Part shown: positions 38,778 to 43,936 of the stretch, in pieces
Layout: each line of letters opens with the position of its first letter
How positions within the stretch are numbered: position 1 is the stretch's first letter
DNA from: a virus
Reading direction: 5' to 3' (one strand)
Virus record (IMG/VR): IMGVR_UViG_3300034374_005671
Span: 19,370 to 83,369 of that record
DNA: 64,000 nucleotides
Program-made: the position numbers and the translations under genes
Notes under the pieces: model-generated
Told to the model about the DNA's origin: nothing
Database searches by the model: none
The model's input: the letters and a program-made list of their open reading frames with translations, nothing else

Positions 38778-38863
38778 TCTTTTTTATCGGGAAATAGGTA
38801 ATCAACTAGAGCTATCACTCCAAATACAATCACAATTATCCCACCTATTACTAAAAGTTCCAT
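38774..38863 (-). CDS. 29-aa single-TM peptide (possible holin-like or lysis accessory)
   Basis: Translated by hand as MELLVIGGIIVIVFGVIALVDYLFPDKKD. It fills the gap directly downstream of the endolysin. Confidence 0.45.
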   Translation of the reverse strand: MELLVIGGIIVIVFGVIALVDYLFPDKKD

Positions 38864-38872
38864 TACTATAAT

Positions 38873-39754
38873 CTATAAACTAACTAACATGTCCATCATC
38901 TCCTGTTGGGGATGAATATCACACTTACCTGTGTTTGTGTTTGTATGGGATAGCACACCCTTAATCAAACCTCTGTACGCTTCTTCTTTCCATTCAAAAG
39001 CCTTAGCACCTTCCTTCTTAATCCATCTAGGAAGTCCCTCACGGATATCAATACCATCTCTCTCAGCAATGAAGTATAACCACTCCCGAACTTTCTCTAT
39101 CTGTGCATCTGAGAACCTGTGCCACTGACTCATACCTTTGAAAGGTTCAGCTAAAGTTACAAATTGAGAAGGGTCTGCTTTTACCCCTGCCCAAGTCTTA
39201 CCTTCTTTAAGATAACCCCAGTTGCAAATTTCTAATCCTACAGAATGCTCGTGCATATACTGAGAACCATTTCTACCGATGTGCCAAGCATACGCTCCTG
39301 ATGGGAATGCCTGTACCATTCTGCCATCGTATGTATCATCGTCACCCTTAATAGAAGGACCTCCCAAAACAAACTCAGTTGCAATACGTCCTCTACTATC
39401 TCTGCCCCAATGGTCAATACACTTGTAAGGGTTATGCCATCCTGCTGTAAAGTGCAAGAACGCATACTCCTTTGTGGTAGGACCGTTTAGATACTCTCCT
39501 GTGGGCAGGTAATGAGTATCATAAGCAAACTTCGAGTCGATAGCTTTATCTACGGTCAAATCCGTATCTAGCAGACTCATCGCCTCTAGTGTCTTAGGAC
39601 CAACAATCCCATCAACTACTAAACCTCTGACCTTTTGAAAGGTCTTTACTGCATCCTCTGTTTGAGGACCAAATATGCCATCTACATCGATAGCACCCAA
39701 AAAGGACTGAATTTCCATTACCATTCGTCCTCTACTTCCCATTCTATAAACCAT
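38873..39754 (-). CDS. Endolysin: PG-binding domain plus N-acetylmuramoyl-L-alanine amidase (Amidase_2)
   Basis: PG_binding_1 motif DGIFGPQTEDAVKTFQ...DGIVGPKT. Amidase motifs LHFTAG, SVGLEICNWG and SH.....KCD. Confidence 0.85.
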   Translation of the reverse strand: MVYRMGSRGRMVMEIQSFLGAIDVDGIFGPQTEDAVKTFQKVRGLVVDGIVGPKTLEAMSLLDTDLTVDKAIDSKFAYDTHYLPTGEYLNGPTTKEYAFLHFTAGWHNPYKCIDHWGRDSRGRIATEFVLGGPSIKGDDDTYDGRMVQAFPSGAYAWHIGRNGSQYMHEHSVGLEICNWGYLKEGKTWAGVKADPSQFVTLAEPFKGMSQWHRFSDAQIEKVREWLYFIAERDGIDIREGLPRWIKKEGAKAFEWKEEAYRGLIKGVLSHTNTNTGKCDIHPQQEMMDMLVSL

Positions 39755-40007
39755 GATTGTAATCTTTATAAGTTATTGAAATCAGTTTATCTAAATAAAC
39801 TCTTGCCTTCTCTAAATCCTCCAAACCATTCTTAGATTTGTGGCGAGTCACGTACTTGATAATATTCCCTTCGAAGAAATCCAAGTTGTGAGCTGCGATA
39901 TAATCCCAAGTTTCTATGTTCTTGTTGTAGAACTTAGGATGTGTAGTGCCACTCCTCTTTGGGCTGTGTGGATTATCCATTAAAGGGTCTCTAGTGTTTT
40001 GTCCCAT
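39744..40007 (-). CDS. DUF3310 (T7 gp1.7/SaV-like) protein
   Basis: HP.FY..IE.WDYI....LDFFEGNIIKYV.R...KNGLEDLEKA..YL signature. The start is probably ATG 40007. Confidence 0.8.
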   Translation of the reverse strand: MGQNTRDPLMDNPHSPKRSGTTHPKFYNKNIETWDYIAAHNLDFFEGNIIKYVTRHKSKNGLEDLEKARVYLDKLISITYKDYNHGL

Positions 40008-40008
40008 A

Positions 40009-40194
40009 CTATTTATTCTTTGCGACACTATACTCAGTATTGTTGTCTGCGTTAACATTCAAGAGGTCTACTAGTTTTTTAGCCTCTTCTTTCGATTCTA
40101 AGTTTAGTACAACTCCCAAACTGTCTAACAAATATACGCTAGAAGAAGGTAATTGAGAGTGTACTTTAACTTTTTTTATGATTTTATATCCCAT
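40009..40194 (-). CDS. Hypothetical protein (61 aa)
   Basis: ORF tightly packed between its neighbours. Confidence 0.5.
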   Translation of the reverse strand: MGYKIIKKVKVHSQLPSSSVYLLDSLGVVLNLESKEEAKKLVDLLNVNADNNTEYSVAKNK

Positions 40195-40894
40195 GGGTAA
40201 TATAGTGTCTACCTTTTTTAATTAAATTAATACTATCGCTCACAAGGGTTGAATCATCCAAGTTGATTATCAACTCAGGGTCGATAGGCACACCTAAGAA
40301 TCTTGTTTCCAAGTGAAGGTGGGGACCTGTAGAACGCCCTGTGGACCCAACTAGTCCAATTGCATCCCCTGCTTCTAGTGTGTCTCCTTGTTCTACAAAT
40401 AATTTTCTGTGGTGGGCATAGTAAGTCTCAAGACCATTGAAGTGTCTTATAATAACTAAGTTACCATAACCTCCGTTATAACCCCTCTTTGAATACCTTA
40501 CTACTCCAGGAAACATACTTTTCGTAGTGTCCCTGTTATTGTATGCTATGTCGATACCATCGTGACTTCTGCCCCAACGCCATCCGTATCCGCTTGTCAT
40601 TCTCCCATCTACAGGGTAACAATACTCGTGTTTGTGAGTCACTAAGGGAAGTGTTACAGTATCAGGGGCATCATAATCCCTGTAATGCAATCTATCCCAC
40701 GAATACGTAGAATCATACAACGTATCGCCCATAAGAACTGCTGTATCCAAATCAAACGTAGAGTCTACAATTATAGCAGTCTCTATATCGTAATAATTGT
40801 TTACAGTCTTACTGTTTAGCGATGCCCAAACCCATAGCATCAATACAGTAATCAATACTAATTTCCAATCAATCATATTTACTTTATGTTCCAT
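40184..40894 (-). CDS. M23 family peptidoglycan endopeptidase with N-terminal TM anchor
   Basis: SGYGWRWGRSHDGIDI (HxxxD), GGYGNLVIIRH, YAH and STGPHLHLE (HxH). Confidence 0.9.
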   Translation of the reverse strand: MEHKVNMIDWKLVLITVLMLWVWASLNSKTVNNYYDIETAIIVDSTFDLDTAVLMGDTLYDSTYSWDRLHYRDYDAPDTVTLPLVTHKHEYCYPVDGRMTSGYGWRWGRSHDGIDIAYNNRDTTKSMFPGVVRYSKRGYNGGYGNLVIIRHFNGLETYYAHHRKLFVEQGDTLEAGDAIGLVGSTGRSTGPHLHLETRFLGVPIDPELIINLDDSTLVSDSINLIKKGRHYITHGI

Positions 40895-40896
40895 AA

Positions 40897-40980
40897 TTAT
40901 TTTGCTTCATACCATGATGTGCCAATATTGGCTTCTGCCCCCATCTCCACTAATCCACTACTAAGATAGTAATTTCCTCC
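40897..40980 (-). repeat. Displaced copy of the polA 3' end (27 codons plus stop)
   Basis: GGNYYLSSGLVEMGAEANIGTSWYEAK versus GGQYYLTSGLVDIKAEANIGDSWYEAK at 41912-41995, 21/27 aa identical. Confidence 0.9.
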
Positions 40981-41724
40981 TCTGCTATCCTCCACTTCTC
41001 CAAAACTTTTAATACACAATTCTACACCACCTGTCCTACATTCCGTCATACCCTCAAAATCAATAGAGGGTGTGTACTTGTATTCTTTTGTCAAACGTAA
41101 TAATTTTTTTTCTAATTCCCAAATTTTAGAAGCTTCGTTTTCCACGATAGCGACTACTTTGTATTCATAAGGTAGTCTTCCTGAAAAACGTTTCTCCAAA
41201 GTATCCCCTGTTATGCCTATTTTGTAGAACACCTCCTCATCTTTATTCAATTCTAAGATATATAATTTAGGGTTTTTTTCATTGCTCTTTTCTACCCATC
41301 TGTCTTTCTTGTAAGCAGAGTAGTAACCACACTTAGGACAACCATGCCCCCTCTGATGGTGTAATGGTTGTTGCCAAAACTCTCCGTGGGTGGGGCAAGT
41401 AATTTTCATATCTTCTTGAGAGAGAGTAATGGTTTCGGGGTGATAAGTGTATTTACCCCCATGAACTGTTTTAAACTGTTTTATTTTTTCTAAAGGCTTT
41501 ATACTATCTCTTTCTTTTATGTAATCGGCATAACATTTTTTACAGCCTGTGTTTACACTTCTTAAATGTAATTGAGGAGAGGTTTCAAACTCAGTATTAT
41601 GTTTATTACAAAAAACATTTATGCTATTTTTAGAACCTTTAATTACATCAGGATAAGAAAACTTATCACCATGCATATCTCTGAACCTTTCAATCCAGTC
41701 TTTAGTTGTCAGATACTTTCCCAT
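40897..41724 (-). CDS. Free-standing homing endonuclease (DUF723-like Zn-ribbon repeats plus GIY-YIG/T5orf172-like domain) fused to a polymerase C-terminal tail
   Basis: Two HG.K[FY].Y...C..H..F...P..H....GC.KC repeats, then LYIL...YKIGIT...KRF...LEK...FEGMTEC. The last 27 aa match the PolA C-terminus. Confidence 0.75.
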   Translation of the reverse strand: MGKYLTTKDWIERFRDMHGDKFSYPDVIKGSKNSINVFCNKHNTEFETSPQLHLRSVNTGCKKCYADYIKERDSIKPLEKIKQFKTVHGGKYTYHPETITLSQEDMKITCPTHGEFWQQPLHHQRGHGCPKCGYYSAYKKDRWVEKSNEKNPKLYILELNKDEEVFYKIGITGDTLEKRFSGRLPYEYKVVAIVENEASKIWELEKKLLRLTKEYKYTPSIDFEGMTECRTGGVELCIKSFGEVEDSRGGNYYLSSGLVEMGAEANIGTSWYEAK

Positions 41725-41857
41725 TGTCTTGCTCCATTGCTTTTATTATAACCATTCTAATATAGGAAGACATATCAAGTCCTAGCTTATCAGCCGCCTT
41801 TCTTACTCTTTCTTTTAACTCAGAATCAGTTCTTACTATTATTTGTACTTCTTTCAT
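41702..41857 (-). CDS. Ribbon-helix-helix (CopG/RelB-like) DNA-binding protein, 51 aa
   Basis: Translated by hand as MKEVQIIVRTDSELKERVRKAADKLGLDMSSYIRMVIIKAMEQDNGKVSDN, a classic beta-helix-G-x-x-x-S-helix pattern. It overlaps the HEG start. Confidence 0.75.
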   Translation of the reverse strand: MKEVQIIVRTDSELKERVRKAADKLGLDMSSYIRMVIIKAMEQDNGKVSDN

Positions 41858-41862
41858 AATTA

Positions 41863-41894
41863 CAATGTTACTACAATTTTATCAATTATCCAAA
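41863..41894 (-). promoter_or_regulatory. Bacteroidetes-type promoter for RHH-HEG (TTTG-N20-TAACATTG)
   Basis: The - strand reads TTTGGATA...TAACATTG with a 20-bp spacer. It is overlapped by TTGTA[AG]T repeats (possible RHH operator). Confidence 0.55.
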
Positions 41895-41911
41895 TTTATT
41901 ACAAAATACTT

Positions 41912-43936
41912 TTATTTTGCCTCGTACCAAGAGTCTCCTATATTCGCCTCTGCCTTAATATCTACTAAGCCACTTGTTAAATAGTATTGTCCACCTTTAA
42001 TCATGCAGTCCTCAAGCACTTTTTTATACTCATCTACTAGGCTTTCATCCACCTCAAGAACAAATTCATCATGGGGTATATTACATATTCTTACCTTTCG
42101 AAAATGTCCATTGTCTACTATATAATCAAAAAGTAAACAAGCGGCTCGTTTTGTCATATGTGCTGAAGTCGCTTGAACAGGGTTGTTCAAGGCCAACCTG
42201 AAGTATTTTCCTTGCCAAGAAAAGTACTTAGAAAGTTTAGGTCTCATCTTTGTATATACCTTGTATGCCTCTTTGTTTACTACGGTATATGTCTCTCCTT
42301 TCTCTTCAGCCTCTTTTTTCTTGTTAGCTTCTACTTTACCTGCCTTGTACAGCTTCTTATCAGCTTCTCCTGTAGCATCCATCCATTTTTTAAGGTCAAG
42401 GAATTGGTCAAACCAAGGAAGGTCTAATTTAAAACCATCTGCTGATTCTACCCACCCATTCTCAATGGATTCTTGCAGTTTCTTTCTGCCCCAAGTATAT
42501 ACTCCAGGATGTAGTTCTTTGTATAGCTGTTCTAATCGTTCCCCTTCCTTTACCTCGATATTAAGACTCTTAGCTGCTGTAAAGCCTGTCCCACCATACG
42601 AGAAACAGAAGCGAGGTGCTTTGGAGAACTGCCTTTTATCTTTATGGTTGTTTTTAATTTCATCGTCAGTTAATTCTTGCAGTTCAGGGAATATCAATCT
42701 TGCGAATGCAGAGTGTAAATCATCTCCATTCTTGATTGAGGATATCATCATTGCATCTTGGTGGAGGTCAGCACCGACCACATTTTCTTGGCCTTCGTAG
42801 TCAGCCACGACCATTTTATATCCATGTGTAGCCACAAAGCAATCCCTAGTTCTCTTATTAGCTGGAAAATTAAGAATATTAACCCCGCCACGCCTAGTAG
42901 AAATTCTAGCAGTATCCAGCACAGGATTAAAATCAGTATAAATTCTGCCATCTTTAATTTTATTTAAAATGTTTTCTCCGTATGTAGATACATCATGCTC
43001 TGCTTGTTTGTATGTTAACCATAACTCTACGAAAGGGTGGCTACTTCTCCTAAGAACATCCTTGTGTAGAGTCTTCTTGTCAGGGTTCTCATCCGATTGT
43101 ACATCAATACCAAACTCCTCAAAGATAGGAATCATTTGTAGAGATGACGACAATAAGGGGATGATACGTGGAGAGCTATCAAACATATCTATCTGTCTGT
43201 CCCTATATTTAGGTAACTCGTCATAGACAAATTTGACCACATCATCCTTAGCTTTTTCTAGAGCAATCTTGTCTTGCTCAATTTTATCTTTCCATTTAGC
43301 TTCTGATATTGGGATACCACACTGCTCCATATAGGCAAGAGCTCTGATATATCGACAATGTAGCTTGAATGTTGGTACACATCCTCTGTCTCGCAACCTT
43401 TCCCCTAAAACTTTAACTAATTCTAATACTTTGTCTACGTCATTGAAAGCATATCGAATAGCTTTTGGATTTGACAATTGGGTCTTAGCAATGTTCTTTT
43501 GCTCACTCTTATCATAGCTGATACCCAACTCACGCTCCATCACAAAACCAAAACCGTGTCTTGTAATTAAACCGTTTCCGTTGTAAAGTATTTTACTTGC
43601 AATAAATGTATCGTAAACTTTTTTAGGTACAAAGTTATATTTGTATAACCACCCAAGGTCGAATGTAAGGTTGTGACCAACCAATGTCTTGCCTTCCAGG
43701 AAAGGAGCCACCTCATCAAATGTTATCTCTCCTCCTAATTGTTGAAGGTCTATAATATAGTTGTCCTTCCCTGTACCTATCTGCACAGAGAACATATGAC
43801 CGTCTATAGGTTTGAGGGAGGTAGTCTCCGAGTCAAACGCAATAACATCAGGTAGCACCATATCTTCTAAGGTGCAATAATTGTACGCTCCTATCTTCTC
43901 AAAGAAAGGACGATTGTTTGTTATGATATAATTCAT
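41912..43936 (-). CDS. polA: DNA polymerase family A with 3'-5' exonuclease
   Basis: ExoI FDSETT, ExoII HNLTFD, ExoIII YAFND. Polymerase motif A ADYEGQE, motif B RQFSKAPRFCFSYG, NNPVQ, motif C PHDE. Confidence 0.93.
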   Translation of the reverse strand: MNYIITNNRPFFEKIGAYNYCTLEDMVLPDVIAFDSETTSLKPIDGHMFSVQIGTGKDNYIIDLQQLGGEITFDEVAPFLEGKTLVGHNLTFDLGWLYKYNFVPKKVYDTFIASKILYNGNGLITRHGFGFVMERELGISYDKSEQKNIAKTQLSNPKAIRYAFNDVDKVLELVKVLGERLRDRGCVPTFKLHCRYIRALAYMEQCGIPISEAKWKDKIEQDKIALEKAKDDVVKFVYDELPKYRDRQIDMFDSSPRIIPLLSSSLQMIPIFEEFGIDVQSDENPDKKTLHKDVLRRSSHPFVELWLTYKQAEHDVSTYGENILNKIKDGRIYTDFNPVLDTARISTRRGGVNILNFPANKRTRDCFVATHGYKMVVADYEGQENVVGADLHQDAMMISSIKNGDDLHSAFARLIFPELQELTDDEIKNNHKDKRQFSKAPRFCFSYGGTGFTAAKSLNIEVKEGERLEQLYKELHPGVYTWGRKKLQESIENGWVESADGFKLDLPWFDQFLDLKKWMDATGEADKKLYKAGKVEANKKKEAEEKGETYTVVNKEAYKVYTKMRPKLSKYFSWQGKYFRLALNNPVQATSAHMTKRAACLLFDYIVDNGHFRKVRICNIPHDEFVLEVDESLVDEYKKVLEDCMIKGGQYYLTSGLVDIKAEANIGDSWYEAK

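What the first reader, a model, noticed from the sequence alone, without database searches (positions are those of the whole stretch)
40897..41995. Homing-endonuclease cassette that replaces the polymerase's 3' end, brings its own RHH repressor, and wears the old polymerase tail
Seen: PolA ends GGQYYLTSGLVDIKAEANIGDSWYEAK, and the endonuclease 1 kb downstream ends GGNYYLSSGLVEMGAEANIGTSWYEAK. They are 21/27 aa identical, but many synonymous positions differ, so these are two alleles and not a fresh duplication. Between them lie a promoter, an unannotated 51-aa RHH gene and the HEG. The downstream copy ends 2 bp before the M23 start, which suggests it is the ancestral tail. Established: some intron-less HEGs invade conserved genes by supplying a cleavage-resistant replacement 3' end. 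Inference: an intron-free, autoregulated selfish element targeting polA just after motif C. The HEG is read in frame into the displaced tail, which preserves translational coupling. Recombination between the tails could excise it.
Basis: partly seen in the sequence, partly recalled or inferred. Interest (0 to 1): 0.75.

Follow-up and report, generated by a model that had tools for sequence, protein, structure and literature searches.

The report
Homing-endonuclease cassette swapping polymerase gene end
A selfish nuclease gene with a small regulator has inserted near the end of a marine crAss-like phage's DNA polymerase gene, bringing a foreign replacement gene end and pushing the original end downstream; copies of the same phage with and without the insert coexist in the same water samples.

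Summary
PolA (41912-43936, - strand) and the nuclease ORF (40897-41724) end in 27-aa tails that match at 21/27 aa but differ at 23/81 nt. More than a dozen related contigs have polA followed 2 nt later by the M23 gene. Their tail matches the downstream, nuclease-fused copy (84/84 nt to L003). So the downstream tail is native and polA's present end is foreign.

Corrections:
- The foreign tract is 246 nt (41912-42157) and includes motif C.
- The displaced remnant is 114 nt. Its first 18 nt are read out of frame, and a 12-nt scar with two 1-nt insertions restores the frame.

The nuclease is a zinc-finger plus T5orf172/GIY-YIG-type homing endonuclease. Upstream lie a 51-aa Arc-like RHH gene and a 54-nt spacer with promoter-like motifs.

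Public metagenome contigs hold occupied and empty alleles in the same samples, with identical flanks, so this is not an assembly chimera. Two variants have lost the fused tail, so the peptide is dispensable.

The closest analogue is the mobile endonuclease ORF "gene hybrids" of fungal mitochondria; I found no phage description. Cleavage, RHH repression and translational coupling are inferred, not shown.

The parts
41912..43936 (-). Hybrid family-A DNA polymerase gene (674 aa): native 5' part joined to a foreign 3' end
   Evidence: Pfam DNA_pol_A 4.5e-43 and 3'-5' exonuclease 6.2e-22. 95-100% nt identity to L001/L002 up to about nt 1740, then 62-78%.
41912..42157 (-). Imported polA 3' tract: codons 594-674 plus stop, including motif C (HDE 621-623) and the 27-aa tail now used by PolA
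   Evidence: Empty-allele contigs from the same samples differ from the window only at 42101-42157 (14 letters) and are identical above 42158. Sliding identity agrees. The closest C-termini found are only 84% identical in aa.
41858..41911 (-). AT-rich spacer carried by the cassette, with two overlapping TTTG-N(18-22)-TAnn[A/T]TTG promoter-like motifs (41905-41863) and ATTGTA-N5-ATTGTA direct repeats (41877-41861)
   Evidence: There are 8 such bipartite motifs on this strand in 64 kb, against 2.8 +/- 1.7 in shuffles, and two of them lie here. Sigma-70-like hits are not above shuffles. Function untested.
41702..41857 (-). 51-aa Arc/CopG/RelB-like ribbon-helix-helix gene, overlapping the nuclease start by 23 nt
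   Evidence: Pfam NikA-like 1.7e-4, RelB 5e-4 and CopG 7e-4, all below curated cut-offs. PHROG 582 Arc-like repressor 2.8e-4. P22 Arc E 0.046 over residues 5-44. Three variants on about 22 contigs, one ending at residue 42.
40897..41724 (-). Homing-endonuclease ORF (275 aa): two C..H..C..C zinc-finger modules, a T5orf172/GIY-YIG-like nuclease domain (about residues 150-232), then read-through into the polA remnant
   Evidence: PHROG 681 endonuclease 1e-35 over residues 8-230. DUF4379 27.2 bits, above the cut-off. 10/25 aligned relatives match T5orf172. Invariant Y155, K168, G170, R179, E205, E228. Fold matches to GIY-YIG nucleases HIGLE Z 6.2, Slx1 5.8, UvrC 3.9, I-TevI 3.5. Tail residues 245-275 have pLDDT below 50.
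40993..41010 (-). First 18 nt of the displaced native polA remnant (AAAAGTTTTGGAGAAGTG), read by the nuclease ORF in a different frame from polA; probable microhomology junction
   Evidence: Alignment A1, BLAST junction at 41010 in all empty alleles, and comparison with the 3' end of the L005 nuclease gene.
40981..40992 (-). Scar in the remnant at native codons C-M-I-D: 3 substitutions plus two 1-nt insertions, which shift the nuclease ORF into the polA tail frame
   Evidence: table 4 shows letters left out at 40982 and 40984 in the empty-allele contigs of X2 and X14. The scar peptide EDSRGG is present in all 11 variants.
40897..40980 (-). Displaced native polA tail (27 codons plus TAA), fused in frame to the nuclease
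   Evidence: 84/84 nt identical to the L003 polA tail and 74-83 of 84 to the other close empty alleles (68/84 in the distant L032). It lies on the same contig path as the empty allele in X1 and X2.
40184..40894 (-). M23 peptidase gene, the unchanged downstream neighbour and probable right homology arm; its ATG is 2 nt after the stop in both alleles
   Evidence: Pfam Peptidase_M23 6.3e-28. Same 2-nt junction in all empty alleles.

Best explanation
This is an intron-less homing-endonuclease cassette sitting in the 3' end of polA of a marine crAss-like phage.

Contents of the polymorphic block (40981-42157):
- a foreign polA 3' end of 246 nt that keeps the polymerase complete;
- a spacer with promoter-like motifs;
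- an Arc-like RHH gene;
- a zinc-finger plus T5orf172/GIY-YIG nuclease gene.

The native last 112 nt of polA were pushed downstream. They are now read as the C-terminal extension of the nuclease, ending 2 nt before M23.

Proposed working (inferred):
1. In a mixed infection the nuclease cuts the empty polA allele near codons 630-650.
2. The break is repaired from the occupied genome. The left crossover falls in polA, which gives the co-conversion tract. The right crossover falls in the remnant or M23.
3. The occupied genome is immune because its functional tail is a diverged allele and its remnant carries the scar.
4. The RHH, transcribed from the cassette's own spacer, most likely represses the RHH-nuclease operon and keeps nuclease levels low.

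Proposed origin (inferred): a one-sided homologous repair from a donor that carried the nuclease directly behind polA (as in L005), closed on the right by a microhomology join.
For: Shown:
- Insertion and polarity: there are more than 12 empty alleles. The remnant is 84/84 nt identical to the native L003 tail, while polA's own tail is only 57-66 of 84. The identity break lies at about nt 1740-1780.
- Polymorphism within one population: runs X2 and X14 hold a contig joining 41010 to 42101 through 77 native letters. Flanks are identical. Cassette contigs have depth about 10-16 against flanks of about 35. X20 shows a native-type loose end. Two cassette haplotypes occur in X1.
- Nuclease family and intactness. 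There are 529 phage records with homologues, often several per genome.
- Selection on the nuclease: 9 synonymous against 4 non-synonymous differences between haplotypes in 190 nt.
- Affinity for this site: L005, whose polA is 57% identical, has a 36%-identical homologue overlapping the polA stop.
- No intron: no Rfam match.
- Single junction: all 11 variants share the same junction and scar, and the 9 with a tail have it unchanged.

Precedents in the literature:
- One-sided homing with microhomology junctions in T4 (review PMC2988022).
- An RHH (Arc) repressing a nuclease-bearing mobile element (bioRxiv 10.64898/2026.09.24.754181).
Against: - No cleavage, homing or binding was or could be tested.
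- The donor of the foreign tract was not found; the best match is 84% in aa.
- The nuclease domain scores below Pfam's T5orf172 cut-off on its own (15.6 against 20 bits), and fold Z-scores are middling.
- All RHH Pfam matches are below their cut-offs.
- No other member of the nuclease family seen here has an RHH partner.
- The spacer does not resemble the presumed target.
- Contig depths are only rough guides to allele frequency.
Confidence: 0.75

Rival explanations
1. The cassette is a passive passenger. It entered once by illegitimate recombination and spreads only by ordinary phage recombination or descent. The nuclease is inactive or has another job and does not target polA.
For: The junction looks like a microhomology join, and the polA 3' end is a general mosaic boundary: polA is 74% identical to L003 but the tail plus M23 is 90%. 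No activity data exist.
Against: - Catalytic-type invariants are intact, and substitutions between haplotypes are mostly synonymous.
- A distant homologue sits at the same gene end in L005.
- The haplotype block has sharp edges in otherwise identical genomes.
- The only differences between the remnant and the native sequence are clustered in 12 nt. This is what immunity to self-cleavage would require.
Confidence: 0.13
2. The RHH and nuclease act as a toxin-antitoxin-like or exclusion module. The nuclease mainly damages co-infecting relatives or host DNA, and the RHH neutralises it or shields the resident genome. Copying of the cassette is a by-product.
For: The best RHH Pfam matches include the RelB and CopG antitoxins. 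The two genes overlap by 23 nt. The RHH is almost invariant across about 22 contigs.
Against: - There is no PADLOC match.
- The RHH is only 51 aa, and 42 aa in one variant, with no C-terminal toxin-binding extension.
- The nuclease family is otherwise free-standing without a partner.
- The insertion geometry, with a replacement gene end and a displaced target, is the signature of homing.
Confidence: 0.08
3. The fused polymerase tail is functional on the nuclease, for example as a mimic that docks it to replisome partners or interferes with rival polymerases.
For: The tail is unchanged in the 9 of 11 variants that still carry it.
Against: - Two natural variants have lost it: P0053 by an internal deletion and frame change, and P0055 by ending at GGKD.
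- The model has no confident structure there (pLDDT 31-51).
- The conservation has a simpler cause: the tail is shared, letter for letter, with the co-occurring empty allele.
Confidence: 0.03
4. The arrangement is an assembly chimera.
For: The record is a metagenome assembly, and the two tails are repeats.
Against: - The repeats are only 73% identical.
- L019 spans 42256-40882 at 99.9%.
- Contigs from four runs cover both junctions.
- The fused protein occurs in 11 variants on more than 20 contigs from JGI, ENA and Logan.
Confidence: 0.01

Closest known systems
Mobile endonuclease ORFs (mORFs) that form 'gene hybrids' in fungal mitochondria: Allomyces macrogynus atp6; Glomus sp. atp6, atp9, cox2 and nad3 (PMC3630166, which cites the Allomyces case)
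   Same: An endonuclease ORF enters the 3' part of a conserved gene and carries a diverged replacement C-terminus in phase with the host gene. The native C-terminus is left downstream and stays nearly identical to the empty allele of close relatives. [quoted passage not shown] Identities are similar: native 91-98% and inserted 64-81% there, against 88-100% among close relatives and 68-79% here.
   Different: Here the host is a phage, not an organelle. The nuclease is of the T5orf172 zinc-finger type rather than LAGLIDADG or classical GIY-YIG. The cassette has its own stop, spacer and a second gene (RHH). The nuclease is fused to the displaced tail, not to the host gene. Both alleles are seen side by side in natural populations.
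Free-standing T5orf172 homing endonucleases of phages (ICP1, T5-like and Vibrio phages; Barth et al. 2023, PMC10448857)
   Same: The architecture is the same: repeated CapR/DUF723-type zinc fingers plus a T5orf172 domain. They sit next to or within essential replication genes and at boundaries of genetic exchange. In-frame loss of one finger repeat (P0002) parallels ICP1 gp174*.
   Different: That paper describes free-standing, intron- or intein-associated HEGs. I found no case there of a replaced gene end with a displaced, fused remnant, nor of an RHH partner.
T4 intron-less homing and one-sided homing: the Seg and Mob endonucleases, and illegitimate double-strand-break repair with limited homology (review PMC2988022). 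From my own knowledge: the mobA plus 50-nt bypass cassette in T4 gene 60.
   Same: A nuclease cuts a conserved gene of a relative, flanking markers are co-converted, and invasion of sites lacking homology on one side occurs through microhomology junctions. In the gene 60 case, extra sequence travels with the nuclease and both keeps the host gene working and protects it from cutting.
   Different: T4 insertions either lie between genes or split the host gene into two polypeptides. Here the host gene stays whole because its end is replaced.
I-TevI autorepression, and the Arc repressor of IS605-family elements
   Same: A selfish nuclease element limits its own expression from a promoter inside the element. 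In IS605 the repressor is an RHH (Arc) that binds the element's intergenic promoter.
   Different: I-TevI represses itself without a separate protein, and its operator mimics the homing site; no such mimicry was found here. IS605 moves by transposition. Repression by this RHH is untested.

Membership tests
T5orf172/GIY-YIG-type free-standing phage homing endonuclease | T5orf172 (GIY-YIG superfamily) nuclease domain with conserved Tyr, Arg and Glu residues | tested here: met
   This protein alone scores 15.6 bits (cut-off 20) for PF10544. However, 10/25 aligned relatives match T5orf172 and 6 match MUG113. Y155, K168, G170, R179, E205 and E228 are invariant and present. The best fold matches for residues 145-262 are GIY-YIG nucleases (Z 6.2, 5.8, 3.9, 3.5). 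PHROG 681 'endonuclease' 1e-35.
T5orf172/GIY-YIG-type free-standing phage homing endonuclease | N-terminal repeated zinc-finger DNA-binding modules (CapR, DUF723, DUF4379) | tested here: met
   PF14311 27.2 bits against a cut-off of 24.5. C39, H42, C61, C64 and C110, H113, C129, C132 are invariant. DUF723 matches 13/25 relatives and CapR 3/25.
T5orf172/GIY-YIG-type free-standing phage homing endonuclease | Presence/absence polymorphism at one fixed site in close relatives, with a co-converted flank | tested here: met
   More than 12 empty alleles share the same junction at 41010. Empty and occupied alleles occur in the same runs with identical flanks, and the foreign tract is 246 nt.
T5orf172/GIY-YIG-type free-standing phage homing endonuclease | Site-specific cleavage of the nuclease-less allele, resistance of the nuclease-bearing allele, and biased inheritance | not testable with these tools
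   Needs an enzyme assay and mixed infections. Only indirect hints exist: a diverged functional tail and a 12-nt scar in the remnant.
mORF-type gene hybrid (foreign C-terminus, endonuclease ORF, displaced native C-terminus) | The inserted C-terminus is in phase with the host gene and more diverged than the displaced native one, which matches relatives | tested here: met
   native remnant 74-84 of 84 nt to the close empty alleles (68/84 in the distant L032), inserted tail 57-66 of 84.
mORF-type gene hybrid (foreign C-terminus, endonuclease ORF, displaced native C-terminus) | Described so far in fungal mitochondrial genomes with LAGLIDADG or GIY-YIG ORFs | tested here: not met
   The host is a crAss-like phage: polA is about 28% identical to Crassvirales polA and the record is from IMG/VR. 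It therefore works like a mORF hybrid but is not a member of that set.
Ribbon-helix-helix (Arc/CopG/RelB) transcriptional repressor | RHH sequence signature (N-terminal beta-strand followed by two helices) | tested here: inconclusive
   Seven RHH-type Pfam families match at E 1.7e-4 to 0.058, all below curated cut-offs. PHROG 582 Arc-like 2.8e-4. P22 Arc E 0.046 over 40 residues.
Ribbon-helix-helix (Arc/CopG/RelB) transcriptional repressor | Binds repeated operator sites in its own promoter | not testable with these tools
   ATTGTA-N5-ATTGTA repeats and promoter-like motifs lie in the spacer. Binding is untested.
Group I/II intron or intein carrying a homing endonuclease | A splicing RNA or protein element that restores the host gene | tested here: not met
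   polA is a complete 674-aa ORF with its own stop. There is no Rfam match at 40700-42400 at E <= 1. The nuclease is a separate ORF behind a stop, a spacer and another gene.

The most novel reading that the evidence does not exclude
This would be a phage counterpart of the mitochondrial gene-end-swapping endonuclease elements, and it works as a self-contained unit. The imported polymerase end and the 12-nt scar are the two immunity determinants and mark the cleavage site. The displaced tail is renewed from the recipient at every homing event, which would explain why it stays identical while the nuclease diverges. Read-through into the tail is kept because it hands ribosomes on to the M23 gene. 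A dedicated Arc-like RHH autorepressor tunes the nuclease; this pairing has not been described for homing endonucleases.
Probability: 0.35. Interest if true: 0.65.

Novelty: new variant of a known kind. Interest (0 to 1): 0.55.

Why it matters
It shows how an intron-less selfish nuclease can live inside an essential phage gene without splitting it, and it rewrites the catalytic end of the polymerase, motif C included, as it moves. That is a direct route for horizontal exchange of polymerase segments among abundant marine crAss-like phages. It also warns that polA-based phylogenies can contain foreign 3' ends.

Occupied and empty alleles coexist with identical flanks in public samples, so homing, target-site immunity and the role of an RHH partner can be tested with synthetic substrates even without a cultured host. 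The empty site, the resistant allele and the scarred remnant together narrow the target of a T5orf172 nuclease to a few dozen bases. T5orf172 nuclease targets have rarely been mapped.

Tried and rejected
- DNA search of the locus against cultured phages found no match. The nearest cultured polA is about 28-30% identical, in crAss-like phages.
- The donor of the foreign tract was not found. IMG/VR scans with the last 94 aa and with P0034 returned only empty relatives. The best C-terminus in the 5.8-billion-protein set is 84% identical.
- RHH relatives: none in IMG/VR, and only its own cluster by word search. I could not test whether an RHH-nuclease pairing recurs elsewhere.
- A whole-protein Foldseek search against PDB gave nothing meaningful for this multi-domain model. 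The VIA wide search was needed.
- Operator mimicry of the homing site, as in I-TevI: the local alignment score between spacer and native target equals the shuffle mean. Rejected.
- Sigma-70-type promoters and terminators at the locus are not above shuffles, and there is no terminator between polA and the RHH.
- PADLOC defence models gave no match.
- Rfam found no intron or other RNA family.
- Excision by recombination between the tails: the empty alleles carry 77 nt of fully native sequence upstream of the tail, so they are not such products. No chimeric-tail allele was seen.
- RNA evidence: no run is on record as RNA, so expression and read-through into the tail could not be examined.
Full report
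**Setting.** The window is part of an 83,369-base IMG/VR virus record. Its family-A polymerase is about 28-30% identical to those of crAss-like phages. Its close relatives come from TARA and other aquatic metagenomes, and the runs that hold it are labelled freshwater, aquatic and oyster metagenomes. All genes at the locus lie on the minus strand:
- polA, 41912-43936
- a 51-aa ORF, 41702-41857
- a 275-aa ORF, 40897-41724
- an M23 peptidase gene, 40184-40894

**Observation.** They match at 21/27 aa and differ at 23/81 nt; 11 codons differ only synonymously and 6 non-synonymously. The 275-aa ORF stops 2 nt before the M23 ATG.

**Which tail is native.** Scans with polA and with the nuclease returned many relatives in which polA is followed, 2 nt later, by M23. 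These are L001-L004, L013-L018, L020-L027 and L032.
- Their polA tail is the downstream copy. The last 84 nt of the nuclease ORF are 84/84 identical to L003 and 74-83 of 84 to the other close relatives (68/84 in the more distant L032).
- PolA's present tail is only 57-66 of 84 identical to any of them.
- Along polA, the window is 95-100% identical to L001 and L002 up to about nt 1740, then drops to 62-78%.
- The polymerase therefore carries a foreign 3' end, and the native end lies behind the insert.

**Exact anatomy.**
- *Start of the remnant.* Native sequence resumes at 41010, which is polA nt 1914. The remnant is thus 112 native nt, not 81.
- *Out-of-frame stretch.* The first 18 nt (41010-40993, AAAAGTTTTGGAGAAGTG) are identical to the native gene, but the nuclease ORF reads them in another frame, as K-S-F-G-E-V.
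- *Scar.* A 12-nt stretch follows (40992-40981) with three substitutions and two single-base insertions, at native codons Cys-Met-Ile-Asp. After it the ORF is in the polA frame for the last 27 codons.
- *Without the insertions.* From my reading of the sequence, the ORF would otherwise stop about ten codons later, roughly 60 nt before M23.
- *A possible junction.* Relatives of the nuclease end 5-30 residues after the conserved G-x-T-E-C motif, often with a short (V/I)-K-x-(L/F) helix. The L005 homologue has ATAAAGAATTTT where the window has ATTAAAAGTTTT and native polA has ATAAAAAAGTTTT. This suggests a microhomology join, but it is an inference.

**The nuclease.**
- PHROG 681 'endonuclease' matches residues 8-230 at 1e-35.
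- Pfam finds a DUF4379 treble-clef zinc finger above its cut-off, and T5orf172 and MUG113 just below theirs.
- In an alignment of 25 relatives, two Cys/His clusters and Y155, K168, G170, R179, E205 and E228 are invariant. Ten relatives match T5orf172 and 13 match DUF723.
- An AlphaFold model (mean pLDDT 80.7) is confident for residues 1-244 and not for the fused tail, where pLDDT is 31-51.
- Its residues 145-262 align best to GIY-YIG nucleases: HIGLE Z 6.2, Slx1 5.8 and 5.7, UvrC 3.9, I-TevI 3.5. The Z-scores are middling, but the family is consistent.
- This is the architecture described for T5orf172 homing endonucleases of ICP1, T5-like and Vibrio phages (PMC10448857).
- Homologues occur in 529 cultured-phage records, often several per genome.
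- L005, whose polA is 57% identical, has a 36%-identical homologue starting 14 nt before the polA stop, with no RHH and no duplicated tail. The family has therefore settled at this gene end at least twice.

**The small gene and the spacer.**
- The 51-aa protein gives weak but concordant RHH matches: NikA-like, RelB, CopG and RHH_1, all below Pfam cut-offs; PHROG Arc-like repressor 2.8e-4; P22 Arc E 0.046 over 40 residues.
- It overlaps the nuclease start by 23 nt.
- The 54-nt spacer holds two overlapping Bacteroidota-type bipartite promoter-like motifs. There are 8 on this strand in 64 kb, against 2.8 expected from shuffles.
- It also holds two ATTGTA repeats 11 nt apart.
- Sigma-70-type matches are at background, and there is no terminator after polA.
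- The spacer does not resemble the presumed target.
- Promoter activity and repression remain inferences. The nearest precedents are I-TevI autorepression and the RHH Arc that represses IS605 promoters.

**Not an artefact, and polymorphic in nature.**
- L019, a separate 1375-nt metagenome contig, spans 42256-40882 at 99.9% identity.
- The nuclease cluster has 11 sequence variants on more than 20 contigs from JGI, ENA and Logan. The RHH cluster has 3 variants on about 22 contigs.
- I laid Logan contigs of four runs on 40300-42800. All four hold pieces of the cassette.
- X2 and X14 also hold a contig that joins 41010 to 42101 through 77 other letters. That is exactly the length of native polA nt 1837-1913, so it is the empty allele.
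- That contig differs from the window only at 42101-42157 (14 letters) and at the scar. It is identical above 42158 and shares the path below 40980.
- X20 shows a native-type loose end at 42101.
- Cassette contigs have depths of about 10-16 against about 35 for the flanks in X1 and X2. This rough figure suggests the occupied allele is a minority.
- X1 holds two cassette haplotypes that differ at 13 of 190 nt. Nine of those changes are synonymous and four are not, which argues for purifying selection on the nuclease.
- In this population the polymorphic block is therefore 40981-42157: 1177 nt in place of 162 nt. The foreign polA tract is 246 nt (codons 594-674) and includes motif C, HDE 621-623.

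**Fate of the fused tail.**
- All 11 variants share the junction and scar peptide K-S-F-(G/R)-E-(V/M)-E-D-S-R-G-G, which points to a single origin.
- Nine variants keep the 27-aa tail unchanged.
- P0053 has an internal deletion and then reads the last bases in another frame, ending Y-G-T a few bases inside M23.
- P0055 ends G-G-K-D.
- The peptide is therefore dispensable.
- Its constancy elsewhere is best explained by its being the recipient's own sequence; it lies on the same contig path as the empty allele. Selection on the fusion is not needed to explain it.
- Most forms still end at or in the M23 start, which fits translational coupling but does not prove it.

**Mechanism.**
- *Shown:* an insertion with a replacement gene end, a displaced native end and sharp block edges; coexistence with the empty allele; an intact nuclease of a homing family.
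- *Inferred:* the nuclease cuts the empty allele near the scar position. Repair copies the cassette, with a left crossover in polA and a right crossover beyond the scar. The diverged functional tail and the scar protect the occupied genome. The RHH limits expression.
- *Origin (inferred):* one-sided homologous repair with a microhomology join, as documented for T4 introns with limited exon homology.

**Comparison with known systems.**
- The closest analogue is the mobile endonuclease ORF that creates 'gene hybrids' in fungal mitochondria. It has a foreign in-phase C-terminus, then the endonuclease ORF, then the native C-terminus still matching relatives (PMC3630166).
- Three literature searches and two phage reviews or surveys gave no phage example of this arrangement, and none of an RHH partner. 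This is absence in what I could search, not proof.
- The element is not an intron or intein: polA is complete, there is no Rfam match, and the nuclease is a separate ORF.

**Verdict.** This is a real, well-supported and probably active selfish element. It is a new variant of a known kind.

Noticed in passing
window 40100-43936 compared with L003 and L004: There is a mosaic boundary at the polA 3' end. PolA is only 73-74% identical in nt to L003 and L004, but the last ~110 nt of polA plus M23 are 88-90% identical. The homing site coincides with a general boundary of genetic exchange between these phage lineages.
   Followed up: partly
L005:6012-6818: A 268-aa homologue of the nuclease (36% identity) starts 14 nt before the stop of a 57%-identical polA. 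It has no RHH and no duplicated tail. This may resemble the ancestral free-standing arrangement.
   Followed up: partly
protein P0002 (JGI contig of 2685 nt, DNA not retrievable): This variant of the cassette nuclease has an in-frame loss of 35 residues, which is one zinc-finger module, and still carries the fused polA tail. It resembles the repeat-mediated finger deletions reported for ICP1 gp174.
   Followed up: no
proteins P0053, P0055 and P0050: In these variants the displaced tail is partly deleted or out of frame, and the RHH stops at residue 42 instead of 51.
   Followed up: partly
L033:6280-7011, L039:5096-5827, L041:4916-5647, L043:8977-9948: More distant polA relatives (about 50% identity) carry a 323-aa member of the same nuclease family about 3 kb downstream of polA, directly after a DnaB-like helicase gene (read in L043, 7752-8885). 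This is another replication-gene neighbourhood for the family.
   Followed up: no
L003:8049-9182 and L004:8052-9170, compared with window about 38778-38872: L003 and L004 have an extra 372-377-aa gene between the 293-aa peptidoglycan-binding/amidase-like gene and the 179-aa gene. The window and L001 and L002 lack it.
   Followed up: no
window 39744-40058 compared with L002:6864-7127: The 104-aa ORF downstream of M23 is 87 aa in L002, through an internal in-frame deletion near its N-terminus.
   Followed up: no
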